NCBI GenBank assembly: GCA_964016885.1 | Contig: OZ024753.1 | Span: forward strand, 33,914,001 to 33,978,000 | Length of the DNA stretch: 64,000 nt | Direction: 5' to 3' | DNA from: Eledone cirrhosa | Taxonomy: Eukaryota | Shown here: in pieces, positions 824-52,434 of the stretch | Numbering within the stretch: position 1 is the first letter of the stretch | Layout of the letters: each line of letters begins with the position of its first letter | Position numbers and translations under genes: made by a program | Notes under the pieces: generated by a model | What the model saw: only the letters and a program-made list of their open reading frames with translations | Databases searched by the model: none | Told to the model about the DNA's origin: nothing

Positions 824-1215
824 TACATGGAACTCCTTTAACCATCTTTTGATCTTATATTATGTATATATATATATGTATATGTGTGTATATATATATA
901 TGTCTAAATGTATATATATGTGTGTATATATATATATATATATATGTATATGTGTGTATATATATATATATGTGTCTAAATGTATATATATAGTATATGT
1001 ATGTATGTGTCTATATATATATATGTCTACATGTATATATATATATATATATATATATATATATCGTGCACATCCTATTGGAATATAGAAATACACGTAA
1101 TGACTTAGCAACAGAGGTGAGCACCAAGCACACAATGGAAACACATATAACATAAGCACAAACAAATACATACACACAGAAATATATATATATATATATA
1201 GTTTTAATATAGATG

Positions 1216-1266
1216 AGATTCTACAGGACTAGAACTGTTTCATTCATTAGAAATCATCAGGAATCT
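1216..1266 (-). ncRNA. Minimal type I hammerhead ribozyme (left arm)
   Basis: Exact reverse complement of 4162-4212. Confidence 0.8.
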
Positions 1267-4161
1267 GGGTATCAAAAAATAAATATGGTATTTATAGGTC
1301 TCTACAAGTGGTAGGAGAGGGTGGGGAGTGGGATGGGTGCAGGTCATTGGTTGATAGAAAAGGGAATTCATTAAAAGCTAATTCTACAAAGCTATAGTTT
1401 ATTTTTATTTTTATTTATTTATGTTTTTAGAGTAACGAGGGCCGACAGAATTCTATAAACAGGTTCCGGATGGCATACCATTCCTTGTCATTAAGTTTCT
1501 CTTAAGCTAACAGGTGTCTATAAAATCAGTGGGGGGTCAGTCATGGTCGATAGAATTAAAGAAAAGGGAGATTCTTTAAAAGCCAAAGTCATTAAGTTTC
1601 TACTAAGTGACAAAATTCTGCAGACAGATTCAAAATACTGAGTGCATATATTACTATTATCTTCGAACTTCTCTTAAACTAATCAACTATATGCCAAAAA
1701 TCAACAGACACATTCACAAAAAACAAAAAACCACATACTCACTCACACACTTACGCGCAACCATAAACACACACACAAACACATATACACACATAAAAAC
1801 ACACACACATATATAAAATATATATTCATGTACACACACATACATACACACATACATACATACATACATACATATATATATATTATAATATATATATATA
1901 TATATATATATATATATATATATAAAAGTATATACACATATATACACACACACATATATATATATACACATACACACACACATACACATACATACACACA
2001 CACACACATATATACACAAATAAATACACTCACACGCACACATACAAACACAAATATACATGTGTATACATATACACACAAATACATATAGACATATATA
2101 CATACACATACACAGACACATATACACACACTTATATATATATATATATATATATATATATATATATATATATATACATATACATATATATATATATATA
2201 TATATATATATATATATATATATACACACATACACACATACATACACATACATATATACACACACATACGCATACATATATATACATATATATATATATA
2301 TACATATATATATATATACATATATATATATATATATATATATACGTACACACACACACATGCACACACACACATATATATATATATATATATATATATA
2401 TATATAAAAACCCCATACACACACATATATATACATATACACACACATACACACAAACACACACACACACATATATACACATATACATATATATATATAC
2501 ATTCATATATATAACCACATACATATATACATACATACACATACACATATATATATATATATATATATATACACACATAAACAAATATATACAAATACAA
2601 ACACACACACACACACACATACATACACATACATATATATACATATATATACATATATATATATATATATATATATATATATATATATATATATATACAT
2701 ATATACACACACATACACATATATACACATATATAAGGAAAAAGCACCATACATACATATATATATATACATACACACATATATATATATATACATACAC
2801 ACATACACACACACACATATATATATATATATATATATATATATATATACATATATATATACACACATATATACACACACCCACACATATACATATATAC
2901 ATATACACACACACATACATACACATACACATATACATAAGTATATATATATATATATATACATACACACAAATATATACATATATATAAAAAAATACAC
3001 ACATATATACATACTTACATGTGTGTATATATATATATATATATATATATGTGAGTATGTGTATGTATGTATATATGTATGTGGTTATATATATGAATGT
3101 ATATATATATATGTATATGTGTATATATATGTGTGTGTGTGTTTGTGTGTATGTGTGTGTATATGTATATATATGTGTGTGTATGGGGTTTTTATATATA
3201 TATATATATATATATATGTATATATATATATATATGTATATATATATATATATATATGTATATATATGTATGCGTATGTGTGTATATATGTATGTGTATG
3301 TATGTATGTGTTGTATGTGTGTGTATGTATACACATGTATATTTGTGTTTGTATGTATGCGTGTGAGTGTATTTATGTGTGTATATATGTGTGTGTGTGT
3401 GTATGTATGTGTATGTGTGTGTGTATGTGTATATATATATATGTGTGTGTGTATATATGTGTATATACTTTTATATATATATATATATATATATATATAT
3501 AATATATATATATGTATGTATGTATGTATGTATGTATGTATGTATGTATGTATGTATGTATGTATGTATGTGTGTATGTATGTGTGTGTACATGAATATA
3601 TATTTGTATATATGTGTGTGTGTTTTTATGTGTGTATATGTGTTTGTGTGTGTGTTTATGGTTTGCGCGTAAGTGTGTGAGTGAGTATGTGGTTTTTTGT
3701 TTTTTTGTGAATGTGTCTGTTGATTTTTGGCATATAGTTGATTAGTTTAAGAGAAGTTCGAAGATAATAGTAATATATGCACTCAGTATTTTGAATCTGT
3801 CTGCAGAATTCTCTAGACCTTTGTCACTTAGTAGCACCTTAATGACTTTAGCTTTTAAAGAATCTCCCTTTTCTTTAATTCTATCGACCATGACTGACCC
3901 CCCACTGATTTTATAGACACCTGTTAGCTTAAGAGAAACTTAATGACAAGGAATGGTATGCCATCCGGAACCTGTTTATAGAATTCTGTCTGCCCTTGTT
4001 ACTCTAAAAACATAAATAAATAAAAATAAACTATAGCTTTGTAGAATTAGCTTTTAATGAATTCCCTTTTCTATCAACCAATGACCTGCACCCATCCCAC
4101 TCCCCACCCTCTCCTACCACTTGTAGAGACCTATAAATACCATATTTATTTTTTGATACCC

Positions 4162-4212
4162 AGATTCCTGATGATTTCTAATGAATGAAACAGTTCTAGT
4201 CCTGTAGAATCT
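4162..4212 (+). ncRNA. Minimal type I hammerhead ribozyme (right arm)
   Basis: agattc-CTGATGA-tttctaatgaat-GAAA-cag ttctagtc ctg-TA-gaatct. 6-bp stem I, short stem II, stem III acag/ctgt, GUA triplet. Confidence 0.8.
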
Positions 4213-4295
4213 CATCTATATTAAAACTTTTATACTCTGCTATGTATTGAATACCTTACTTACTGTGGTTACCTCCGATTCAACCCGGAATAACG

Positions 4296-5239
4296 TATAT
4301 ATATATATATATATATATATATATATATATATATATATATATATATATATATATATATATATAGACATATATATATATATATATATAGACACATACATAT
4401 ACTATATATATACATTTAAACACATATATATATACACACATATACATATATATATACACATATATATACATGTAGACATATATATATATATAGACACATA
4501 CATACATATACTATATACATTTAGACACATATATATATATACACACATATACATATATATATATATATACACATATATATACATTTAGACATATATATAT
4601 ATACACACATATACATATATATATATACATATATATATATACACATATAAATACATATATATACATATACATAAATATATATAGACACATATACATATAT
4701 ATACATATACATATATATATATATAGACACATATATATATATATATATATATATACACATATATATACACATATATATACATATATATACATATACACAT
4801 ATATATATATAGACACATATATATATATATACACATATACATATATATATATACACACACATATACACACATATATATATATACACATATATATACATAT
4901 ACACATATATATACAAATATATATACATACATATATATACATACATATATATATATATACACATATATATACATATACATACTTATATATATACACATAT
5001 ATATACATATATATATATACATATATACATGCATATATATATATATACATATATATACACATATATATACATACATATACATATACATACTTATTTATAT
5101 ACACATATATATACATATATATATATATATATATATATATATATATATATATATATATAAATATATATATATACATATATACATGCATATATATATATAT
5201 ATATATATATATATATATATATATATATATATATATATA
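4296..5239. repeat. Compound (TA)n/(CA)n/(TACA)n microsatellite field
   Basis: Directly visible. Similar fields at 860-1064, 1800-3660, 11040-11510, 18665-19165, 30255-31015, 41610-42490 and 51553-52150. Confidence 0.95.
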
Positions 5240-50170: not shown

Positions 50171-50934
50171 TCTGGTTTCATTACTCTAGAGAATATTTTA
50201 TTATTGTGAGATTCCTTGCTGTTCCCCATTAGAACCCTTCATTTTTTTTGTCCCCAGTGTCTCTCATATTTTTACATATTTTACGTAACATTGCCTTTTG
50301 ATATTTTAATTATACGCTGAGGAATTATTTTTTTTGTATGAGATCGATTCGTTCAATTAATTGGCATTTTTTGTCTCTTTTATATAAGTTATTCAATTAT
50401 TCTATATTTTACTTGTTGCAGTCATTCGACTAGTCATTCTGGGTATTCGACTAGTCATTCCCAGTATTTTTTGGTATTTGTTTTATATTTGTTTTAAATG
50501 CCTTCATGTTAACCCACATGTCAATGTTTGAGCTGTTTTATTTCTATTTCTTTGATACTGTATAATTTATTATAAATCTAAGTACATTCGCTAATATATA
50601 TAATATATATATATAGATTTATATATGGTCTTACATCTGTAGTTTGTATTTGTCTCTCTCGCTCATATATATATATACACACACAGAAACAGAAATACAA
50701 AACCTTATATAAATCGATATATATATATATATATATATATATATATATATATATATATATATATATATATATATATATATAAATATATACCCTTCAGTTA
50801 GTTGTATAAGGTACACATACATACAATATATATATATATATAACGAAGGAAATGTGGTAATGAACCAGGTGGACCATAACGCACCAAAGTACTCAATACT
50901 TAGGGTAGTAGAGTGGGTAATAGGAACGAGTAGG

Positions 50935-51030
50935 ACCCCGACGGCTGAGCTCAAGCCGTTTCGACGGCTAATTCTGGACTAAATGAACATTTTTATCCTG
51001 GTATATGAATAGCCGAGCTTCTCAGGGGGT
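50935..51030 (-). ncRNA. Family A hammerhead (left arm), core CUGAGAA
   Basis: Reverse complement of 51446-51541. Confidence 0.7.
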
Positions 51031-51445
51031 AATTCCATATATGGTAAAAGTGATTGTCACAAGGATTGGTCAAAAGTTTGTTGCTGAGACACATAATTCT
51101 ATCATGGCAATTTGTGGAGGGAAGGGCTAGCTGAACCTGCCAGTATTAATTGTTTTTTAACATTCTCGGTATTTTTCTATATATTTACCCCATATTGTTT
51201 TACTTATTGTTTCGACTTCCTCCCCCTCCCCCTCCCCTTCCCTAGTATACTTCTTTGACCTCCTGCCCAGCTGTAGTTGGCACTATCAACGCACGACTGG
51301 GTTTCCTCCACCCCCTCTCCCTCTTTCTTCTACTGGCAGGTTCAGCTACCCCTTCCCTCCACAAATTGCCATGAAAGAATTATGTGTCTCAACAACAAAC
51401 TTTTGACCAATCCTTGTGACAATCACTTTTACTATATATGGAATT

Positions 51446-51541
51446 ACCCCCTGAGAAGCTCGGCTATTCATATACCAGGATAAAAATGTTCATTTAGTCC
51501 AGAATTAGCCGTCGAAACGGCTTGAGCTCAGCCGTCGGGGT
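51446..51541 (+). ncRNA. Family A hammerhead (right arm), core CUGAGAA (C3-A8 mismatch)
   Basis: acccc-CTGAGAA-gctcggctattc...gaattagccgtc-GAAA-cggc ttgagctca gccg-TC-ggggt. Confidence 0.7.
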
Positions 51542-52434
51542 CCTACTCGTTCATATACATATATATAACATATATATATATATACATATATATATATATA
51601 ACATATATATATATATACATATACATATATATATATATATACATATATATATATATATACATATATATATATATACATACCTATATATATATATATATAC
51701 ATACCTATATATATATATATATATATATACATACCTATATATATATACATACATATATATACATATATATATATATACATATATATATATACATACCTAT
51801 ATATACATACCTATATATATATATATATACATACCTATATATATATACATACATATATATATATACATACATATATATATATACATACAGATATATATAT
51901 ACATATATATATATACACATATATATATATATATATATATATATACATACATATATATACATATATATATATACATACATATATATATATATACATACAT
52001 ATATATATATATACATACATACATACATATATATATATACATATATATATATACATACATATATATACATACATATATATATATACATACATATATATAC
52101 ATACATATATATATATACACACATCTATATATACATATATATATATACACACATCTGGTTTTCTGGAGTTAGTTACTATTGGTACAATATATAGAGTATA
52201 TAGTGTAGTTGTGTCATAAATAAGGGACATTTTTAGGTATTATTCTCTGATCAATGGAGCTCTTCCAAGTTTCATCTCCATTGATATCTGTTGCTATTAC
52301 AAAGAATGTTGTTTTGCCAGTAATTAATCTTTTTCTTTGACACCACTTCTGTTATTTCATATGTTTCTTTTGATAATCAAATTAAAATTGTAGTATAAAG
52401 TTTCACACCAAAATATGTGAAGACCGGCTGATAT

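What the first reader, a model, noticed from the sequence alone, without database searches (positions are those of the whole stretch)
1201..51552. One recurrent asymmetric fold-back architecture across unrelated families
At 1201-4295, 11510-11701, 14134-14354, 16242-16418, 17549-17807, 19761-19855, 24716-25140, 28610-28915 and 50842-51552 the layout is the same. Two copies of the ribozyme region sit head-to-head with 3' ends pointing outward. One arm keeps the full 3' tail, and the other stops early at (TA)n. Arms range from 7 bp to >1 kb. Inverted 5' pLTRs are known for Penelope, but here they dominate and often make up the whole insertion. Inference: cDNA snap-back/self-priming followed by TA-microhomology joining.
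Basis: partly seen in the sequence, partly recalled or inferred. Interest (0 to 1): 0.8.

Follow-up and report, generated by a model that had tools for sequence, protein, structure and literature searches.

The report
Twin-primed Penelope head-to-head insertions
These mirror-image inserts in TA repeats are short end pieces of Penelope-like jumping genes in a layout already described, and their junctions suggest that each half was likely copied separately from one of two fixed start points on one RNA and then joined, rather than made by the new DNA folding back on itself.

Summary
The inverted repeats are real at all nine loci. They belong to six families: four with Hydra-clade Penelope-like (PLE) ORF motifs, one Neptune-type, and one ~655-bp non-coding hammerhead tandem unit. 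The layout (head-to-head, 3' ends outward, tail on one arm, (TA)n target) is the published PLE inverted-pLTR-plus-tail structure. The short arm does not stop at random: it ends at one fixed site per family (tails 36-134 nt). Ribozyme content is uneven; many copies hold half a hammerhead or none. Plain snap-back fails: in 75 sampled junctions the tail-less arm reaches further 5' in 39, the tailed arm in 28, and 8 pairs do not overlap at all. The arms share subfamily and rare variants, and family A arms stop at a sharp edge that looks like a transcription start. Best model (about 0.65): both cut target strands prime cDNA on one RNA at the two internal start sites known in vitro for a PLE, run off its 5' end, and are end-joined. 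My searches found no paper with this model. The scan found the same thing before in other windows of this genome.

The parts
1201..3010 (-). Family C (Hydra-type PLE) tail-less arm, about 1.8 kb, starts at c68-69 (c = distance from the tail end); type I hammerhead motif 1260-1222; inner end approximate (microsatellite)
3020..4295 (+). Family C tailed arm, about 1.27 kb; hammerhead motif 4168-4206; 68-nt tail 4228-4295
   Evidence: tail runs into a 529-aa open frame in L170
11511..11644 (-). Family A (Hydra-type PLE) tailed arm c1-135, 3' half of hammerhead only
11647..11701 (+). Family A tail-less arm reaching c139; 2-nt insert at the junction
14134..14286 (-). Family B (Hydra-type PLE) tailed arm c1-153, 86-nt tail
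   Evidence: ORF link in the C9 block
14289..14359 (+). Family B tail-less arm c159-88
16243..16419 (.). Divergent family A subfamily, tailed arm left, tail-less arm right; junction not resolved against the reference (27 nt unexplained)
17416..17667 (-). Family D (Hydra-type PLE) tailed arm c13-308 with an internal deletion (c243-284) that removes the hammerhead core; family tail 134 nt
   Evidence: L214 readthrough into ORF
17666..17818 (+). Family D tail-less arm c291-135, hammerhead core mutated
19762..19856 (.). Family A tailed arm c1-85 (19762-19846) joined bluntly to a 10-nt tail-less arm c87-78 (7 non-TA bases); no ribozyme sequence
19866..20025 (.).
24717..24909 (-). Family E (Neptune-type PLE) tail-less arm c37-229, full minimal hammerhead motif 24870-24842
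24909..25142 (+). Family E tailed arm c234-1, hammerhead motif 24953-24981, 36-nt tail
   Evidence: GIY-YIG ORF upstream in L225 and L247
28575..28764 (-). Family F (non-coding ~655-bp hammerhead tandem unit) tailed arm c1-190, 93-nt tail; ribozyme not included
28763..28915 (+). Family F tail-less arm c246-94
50843..51145 (-). Family A tailed arm c1-303, 77-nt tail 50843-50919
51146..51556 (+). Family A tail-less arm c482-78, 179 nt longer at its 5' side than the tailed arm; variant-core hammerhead fold

Best explanation
Each insert is two 5'-truncated end pieces of one Penelope-like element family, joined head-to-head in a (TA)n tract, and it most likely forms by a fixed-site form of twin priming. 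Shown: two fixed 3' ends per family; one of each per insert; arms of one source type; arms truncated at separate points; short or no microhomology, or inserted bases, at the joint. Inferred: the element's GIY-YIG endonuclease cuts both strands of (TA)n; each free 3' end pairs with 2-6 TA-like bases on the RNA, one at the distal site (gives the tail) and one at the proximal site (no tail); both cDNAs are made on the same RNA, the distal one displacing or following the proximal one. When priming happens in the RNA's 5' pLTR, both cDNAs run off the RNA's 5' end after about 65 and 140 nt (family A), giving the common ~200-bp ORF-less insert; priming in a downstream pLTR of a read-through RNA gives long arms. 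Host end joining then fuses the two cDNA ends.
For: Fixed ends: outer ends are bimodal in all six families, e.g. A c1 (21 hits) and c78 (16), B c1 (21) and c87 (21). One of each: 29 of 30 loci anchored on the tail-less end join directly to a tailed arm, none to a tail-less arm, one runs off the locus; of 30 tail-anchored loci 19 have a tail-less partner, 1 a tailed one, 6 none, 4 unresolved. Not nested: of 75 block and pattern junctions the tail-less arm is longer in 39, the tailed arm in 28, tie 8; 8 have no overlap; non-overlapping strand-switch joints also occur in raw reads. One template: arms share common variants 44 times against 8.4 in shuffled pairs, and rare variants 10 against 0.16 (38 family A pairs; E and F also exceed the shuffles for rare variants). 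Edge: 76 of 118 family A arm ends lie in c131-143, none in c144-172, 8 beyond; an initiator-like TCATTT has its A at c142 with a TATA-like motif 27 nt upstream; C and E have TATA motifs about 31 nt upstream of their edges. Joint: 42 of 115 carry inserted bases; of 73 without, 61 have 0-2 nt microhomology, mean 1.5 against 0.69 by chance. In vitro a PLE protein cuts and extends both strands and starts at two internal sites that bracket the tail (PMC11167929).
Against: Shared variants fit snap-back or later conversion between arms equally well. 12 of 115 joints have 3-7 nt microhomology, some at the ribozyme's own hairpin (L280, L303), as a fold-back would give. The skew towards longer tail-less arms (26 vs 6 by more than 10 nt) is inflated by detection: tail-less arms under about 25 nt are missed and the anchoring pattern needs c108. 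Length coupling (9 of 9 long tailed arms have long partners) uses 6 loci fetched for being long and has exceptions (family B in the C9 block: 2.3-kb tailed arm with a c135 partner; L309). TATA-like motifs are common in AT-rich DNA, B's is weak, and no RNA 5' end was measured. The depth drop at c131 is confounded: reads end at AATT sites, probably the library's restriction site. Five tailed arms end at or near the hammerhead cut site (c97-104) while their partners go further, which one intact RNA does not explain without a stall. The in vitro paper found no start-site difference between strands, so the near-strict one-of-each rule is not explained by it.
Confidence: 0.65

Rival explanations
1. 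cDNA snap-back, with an extra trimming step: one cDNA folds back, copies itself, and one end is then cut at the fixed site and joined to (TA)n.
For: Arms share variants; many arms end close together; 12 of 115 joints have 3 nt or more of microhomology; PMC8557442 suggests the tail results from endonuclease resolution of an intermediate.
Against: The longer arm is the tail-less one in 57 and the tailed one in 49 of 115 junctions, so trimming would have to act on either arm; 12 pairs have no overlap; 42 joints carry inserted bases; loop-less blunt palindromes occur (L297 140/140, L321 132/132).
Confidence: 0.12
2. Self-priming on an antisense RNA (Arkhipova et al. 2013): an antisense transcript folds back at its 3' end and primes the sense arm.
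For: Proposed in PMC3846280 to explain head-to-head palindromes; would explain cases where the tail-less arm holds the loop.
Against: Needs one arm type always to hold the loop; both classes are frequent. Both outer ends match the two sense-RNA start sites measured in PMC11167929 for another PLE (by analogy; not measured for these families).
Confidence: 0.06
3. Dual priming, but on two different RNA molecules held by a protein dimer.
For: Explains overlap of the arms without strand displacement, and arms ending at the ribozyme cut site beside longer partners; a dimer is predicted in PMC11167929.
Against: Arms are subfamily-concordant and share rare variants; long tailed arms of family A have long partners. 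Two RNAs from one active source locus would also be concordant, so this is not excluded.
Confidence: 0.14
4. Assembly or long-read fold-back artefacts, or DNA-transposon (MITE) terminal repeats.
For: Palindromes are a known long-read artefact (recalled); many inserts are short and non-coding.
Against: Arms differ by several percent and have fixed asymmetric ends; short-read runs of another study show the joints and the TA-flanked c78 end; five families run into RT/GIY-YIG ORFs.
Confidence: 0.02

Closest known systems
EN+ Penelope-like element insertions with inverted 5'-truncated pLTR and one-sided tail (PMC8557442 Fig. 2 legend and passages; PMC3846280 passages and Discussion)
   Same: Head-to-head inverted copy, tail at one end only, partial tandems, type I hammerhead in the pLTR, (TA)n targets. 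L036 shows the full textbook layout: inverted tail-less pLTR, pLTR, ORF, pLTR with tail.
   Different: Tails of 68-134 nt in five families against the 30-40 bp described; most inserts are ~200-bp ORF-less pairs; tail/no-tail pairing is close to strict; the published explanation is self-priming or endonuclease resolution.
Hydra clade of C-terminal EN+ PLEs (PMC8557442 section 11)
   Same: RW[RK], DKT, CxCx5C linker, CxxC before E, CxH after N, (TA)n insertion (families A-D).
   Different: Family A's unit is about 3.55 kb (described as generally under 3 kb), its hammerhead core is a variant, and the clade was described as few families, whereas family A alone has at least 15,369 exact tail-end matches. 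No tree with reference Hydra sequences was built.
Poseidon PAc of the green anole in vitro (PMC11167929, main text read)
   Same: Two internal RT start sites bracketing the tail; both target strands cut and extended; AT-rich target.
   Different: That paper does not explain the inverted arm in the parts read, and reports start sites without homology to the cut DNA, while here 2-6 TA-like bases sit at most start sites.
L1 twin priming (as summarised in PMC2912911, passages)
   Same: Two target ends prime on one RNA; cDNAs joined at short microhomology; 5' inversion.
   Different: In L1 the second primer lands at variable internal sites and the pieces barely overlap (the latter recalled); here the second site is fixed and near the first, so the arms overlap and form palindromes.
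Non-LTR retrozymes (bioRxiv 10.64898/2026.07.22.740005: abstract, introduction, part of methods, passages)
   Same: Family F is a non-coding ~655-bp tandem unit with a type I hammerhead.
   Different: Family F also shows the PLE tail and inverted-arm signature; the word 'tail' does not occur in that paper's main text.

Membership tests
EN+ Penelope-like elements | Single ORF with RT and C-terminal GIY-YIG endonuclease linked to the end repeat | tested here: met
   A: L036; B: C9 block; C: L170; D: L214 (RT part) and L204 (EN, as partner arm); E: L225, PF01541 E 1.8e-6. Pfam found nothing for the A, C, D fragments or L276; assignment rests on motifs and tblastn. F: no ORF of its own.
EN+ Penelope-like elements | pLTR from partial tandem; tail reads on into the ORF start | tested here: met
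   A (L036), C (L170), D (L214); not seen for B and E
EN+ Penelope-like elements | Inverted 5'-truncated copy and a tail at one end only | tested here: met
   tail length 36 nt in E, 68-134 nt in the others
EN+ Penelope-like elements | Type I hammerhead motif in the pLTR | tested here: inconclusive
   Strict motif in C, D, E and the F unit; relaxed core only in A; not found by the descriptor in B. Rfam listed no hammerhead among the best 150 of 264 matches. Cleavage not tested.
EN+ Penelope-like elements | RT groups with PLE/telomerase RTs in a tree | not tested
Hydra clade (families A-D) | RWK-type N-terminal motif and DKT in place of DKG | tested here: met
   A, C, D; this region was not held for B
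Hydra clade (families A-D) | CxCx5C linker, no CCHH motif, CxxC and CxH around the conserved E and N | tested here: met
   CxCx5C in B, C, D and in A (L329; L036 has C>F); CxxC-E and CxH in A and B
Hydra clade (families A-D) | Insertion into (TA)n | tested here: met
   flanks; several C copies sit in (GA)n instead
Neptune/Nematis type (family E) | CX2-5CxxC linker before a C-terminal GIY-YIG with CCHH cysteines | tested here: met
   L225 and L247 translations; Neptune versus Nematis not resolved
Non-LTR retrozyme (family F) | Non-coding tandem unit with a type I hammerhead | tested here: met
   657-bp unit, longest stop-free frame 65 aa, head-to-tail partial tandems, motif in L252
Non-LTR retrozyme (family F) | Self-cleavage and circular RNA | not testable with these tools
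   needs RNA data or an assay
cDNA snap-back product | Copied arm nested within the template arm | tested here: not met
   either arm can be longer; 12 of 115 pairs do not overlap
MITE / DNA transposon | Symmetric terminal inverted repeats with fixed element length | tested here: not met
   asymmetric ends and variable inner breakpoints

The most novel reading that the evidence does not exclude
PLEs normally integrate by obligatory two-ended priming: one protein complex primes both cut strands at two fixed sites near the 5' end of one RNA, so most insertions are two strong-stop-like cDNAs fused head-to-head, and full-length copies are the rare case primed in the downstream pLTR. The same machinery inserts a retrozyme-like non-coding unit (family F), whose arms pile up just inside its ribozyme cut site.
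Probability: 0.4. Interest if true: 0.72.

Novelty: new member of a known kind. Interest (0 to 1): 0.47.

Why it matters
The layout is known, but how PLEs make it is stated as open (PMC8557442 Discussion passages). This genome holds thousands of young junctions per family (6,519 and 15,369 exact end matches for family A alone), enough to tell the models apart by counting. The counts here argue against the self-priming idea in print and tie the inverted arm to the two start sites measured in vitro. They give direct predictions for an existing in vitro system. For annotation: these inserts would be mistaken for MITEs, miRNA hairpins or assembly artefacts, and they show that Hydra-type PLEs can be very abundant.

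Tried and rejected
The repeat finder was swamped by (TA)n. Rfam gave only TA-driven miRNA matches below gathering score. A 98-nt family C query found nothing; a 589-nt query worked. Pfam on ORF fragments was empty except for E; PDB sequence search gave nothing. Single-strand folds of the ribozyme regions were no more stable than shuffles (z -1.3 to 0.5), so they are not evidence. I first called A-D Neptune and E Poseidon; the motif definitions in PMC8557442 reversed that. I first linked F to ORFs in L270, L272 and L276; TA tracts or complex joints separate them, so I rejected the link. A splice-acceptor reading of the edge was considered for B and A and left untested. No RNA holder was listed. 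Locus-level read support and empty orthologous sites were not obtained. Of 186 solver rows, 71 were dropped before the 115-junction count: 20 duplicates (identical junction text, which also removed at least one independent locus, L295), 16 with more than 17 unexplained bases, 27 with an unclassified outer end, 6 tailed/tailed (5 in family F, from tandem read-through or spurious short hits; 1 real, L316) and 2 tail-less/tail-less.
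Full report
Observation. The window lies at G000:C13:33,914,001-33,978,000 in a 3.0-Gb genome rich in (TA)n. An octopus-type origin is my recollection from SINE-like repeats and was not tested. Self-blast finds inverted arms at eight of the nine listed loci; the ninth (19762-19856) has a 10-nt arm read by eye. I use c for the distance from the family's outermost 3' end. The nine loci fall into six families: A (11511, 16243, 19762, 50843), B (14134), C (1201), D (17416), E (24717), F (28575). 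All are head-to-head with 3' ends outward and have one long-ended (tailed) and one short-ended arm.

What the families are. Family A copies elsewhere run into an ORF: L036 holds an inverted tail-less end, then end repeat, ORF (RT with YRDD, C-terminal endonuclease), end repeat with tail. The tails of C (L170) and D (L214) read on into ORF starts, B's tailed arm in the C9 block contains RT and endonuclease, and E's ORF lies upstream of its end repeat. A-D carry the motifs that define the Hydra clade in PMC8557442 section 11 (RW[RK], DKT, CxCx5C, CxxC and CxH; not every motif was held for every family). E has a CX4CxxC linker, internal cysteines and Pfam GIY-YIG, which is Neptune or Nematis type. 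F is a 657-bp non-coding unit in partial tandems with a type I hammerhead motif. No tree was built. A strict hammerhead descriptor hit 7 places in the window against a mean of 0.1 in 30 shuffles; four are the C and E arms. Most short copies of A keep only the 3' half of the ribozyme, and the copies at 19762 and 28575 keep none.

Architecture in a wider sample. I examined 1.164 Mb (the window, 100 kb of flank, ten 100-kb blocks from ten contigs), 60 family A loci taken by exact end patterns (the first 30 of 6,519 and of 15,369 matches, all on C1), and 177 loci taken by similarity. Outer ends are bimodal in every family, giving tails of 77, 86, 68, 134, 36 and 93 nt for A-F. Orientation is 3'-outward in 47 of 49 neighbouring pairs. 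In the blocks 39 of 47 junctions are tailed/tail-less, and in the pattern set 43 of 46. 29 of 30 tail-less-anchored loci join a tailed arm; of 30 tail-anchored loci 19 have a tail-less partner, 1 a tailed partner, 6 none and 4 are unresolved. Raw Illumina reads of three runs from another study show about 3,000 reads each with TA repeats just outside c78, and strand-switch joints including non-overlapping ones such as c69/c138 and c72/c135. RAD reads start at few places, so these are few loci; the depth fall at c131 coincides with an AATT site and is not used as evidence.

Known or not. PMC8557442 (passages, section 11, supplement search) describes an inverted 5'-truncated copy next to the 5' end and a 30-40 bp tail at one end, and calls the origin of these structures undefined. 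PMC3846280 (passages, Discussion) reports head-to-head palindromes and proposes self-priming on an antisense template. PMC11167929 (parts 1-2 of 4, the whole main text) shows two internal RT start sites that bracket the tail, and cutting and extension of both strands. So the layout and even the self-priming idea are in print. Searches for Penelope with 'twin priming' (2 listings, neither about PLE mechanism by title, not read), with 'head-to-head' and 'palindrom', with 'strong-stop' (none), and with octopus found no paper giving the model below. The library lacks most subscription papers, including the 2005-2006 PLE reviews, and bioRxiv supplements are closed.

Mechanism test. A snap-back copy must be nested in its template. 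I solved 186 junction rows and kept 115 tailed/tail-less junctions (drops listed under Tried and rejected). The tail-less arm reaches further 5' in 57, the tailed arm in 49, and 9 tie; in the 75 block and pattern junctions the figures are 39, 28 and 8; in the 32 block junctions 16, 13 and 3. In 12 of 115 the tailed arm ends inside the tail, so the arms share no sequence. Neither arm is therefore always the template. Of the nine listed loci, six have the longer tail-less arm (about 1.8 kb against 1.27 kb at 1201; 482 against 303 at 50843), two the longer tailed arm, one is unresolved. At the joints, 42 of 115 have inserted bases, some copied from nearby sequence, two being A-runs at c141; of the other 73, 61 have 0-2 nt of microhomology (mean 1.5, chance 0.69, none of 2,000 draws as high). 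This resembles end joining, and the L1 twin-priming junctions summarised in PMC2912911 (passages). Twelve joints have 3-7 nt and could be true fold-backs.

One template. In 38 family A pairs the arms share common variants 44 times (8.4 in shuffled pairs) and rare ones 10 times (0.16), with 36 rare one-arm changes; E and F agree for rare variants. This fits one RNA, one source locus, snap-back or later conversion. Long tailed arms of A have long partners in 9 of 9 cases (6 of them fetched for length), but B in the C9 block and L309 are exceptions.

The edge. 76 of 118 family A arm ends lie in c131-143, none in c144-172 and 8 beyond. An initiator-like TCATTT has its A at c142, with a TATA-like motif at c169. 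C's arms end by c133 with TATAAAT at c164; E's by c234 with TATATAA about 31 nt upstream in one of two copies seen; B's by c161-163 with a weaker motif. The edge falls inside the ribozyme in A, at its 5' stem in B and C, and about 40 nt before it in E, so it tracks the promoter-like motifs better than the ribozyme. This is inference from motifs in AT-rich DNA; no RNA end was measured. Five A arms stop at c97-104, at the predicted cut site or the base of the stem III hairpin, which remains unexplained.

Model and verdict. Most likely both cut target strands prime on one RNA, one at each fixed site, helped by 2-6 TA-like bases there (weak for C and D ends); the cDNAs run to the RNA's 5' end or stop earlier, and are joined. 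Confidence: PLE identity and known layout about 0.95; this mechanism about 0.65; two-RNA variant 0.14; snap-back with trimming 0.12; antisense self-priming 0.06. The scan's earlier notes on this genome report the same layout, several with the same reading and one or two favouring fold-back; they are unchecked and were not counted as support. The finding is a new, very abundant set of members of a known kind, whose value is that it makes an open mechanistic question countable.

Noticed in passing
window 59477-59608: Two tail-less family A pieces facing inward across a 38-nt TA tract, the opposite orientation; similar repeats of a tail-less end beside the first occur in L192, L202, L319. Possibly a second round of priming in the same tract.
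   Followed up: partly
L252:1690-2252, L254, L260 (family F): A ~655-bp non-coding tandem unit with a canonical type I hammerhead and the PLE tail signature; 6 of 20 solved arm ends lie at c368-386, just inside the predicted cut site (c386/387). Looks like a retrozyme moved by a PLE; partner element not identified.
   Followed up: partly
window 763-817 (+), 13964-13915 (-), 21695-21646 (-): Three more strict type I hammerhead motifs outside the listed loci, probably further PLE-type families.
   Followed up: no
window 10416-10602, 21231-21362, 34494-34617: Single arms without an inverted partner: a tail-less A arm, a tailed A arm ending at the c132 edge, and a tailed B arm.
   Followed up: partly
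window 25143-25165; family E loci L218-L231: The tailed end of family E abuts (TATC)n/(GATA)n or (GA)n rather than (TA)n, while its tail-less end abuts (TA)n.
   Followed up: no
L279, L288: Runs of 13-14 A added at arm ends at c141, as expected from slippage on the first U's of an RNA 5' end.
   Followed up: partly
blocks C5 (about 46042 and 47056) and C9 (about 23323 and 24271): Whole fold-back inserts occur twice in mirror image inside larger palindromes of 1.2-1.4 kb.
   Followed up: partly
window 15283-15881, 20612-21218, 31019-31574: Three 94-95% identical copies of a ~600-bp repeat, several ending next to TA tracts or PLE pieces; not identified.
   Followed up: no
window 40597-41022 and 41188-41613: Direct duplication of 426 bp at 99.8% identity, 591 bp apart.
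   Followed up: no
window 22258-22568 and 54551-54868: 3' fragments of a LINE-type RT ORF (same sequence as ORFs in L035 and L040) inserted at TA tracts; family name not tested.
   Followed up: no
L316: The one tailed/tailed head-to-head pair among 60 pattern-anchored family A loci.
   Followed up: partly
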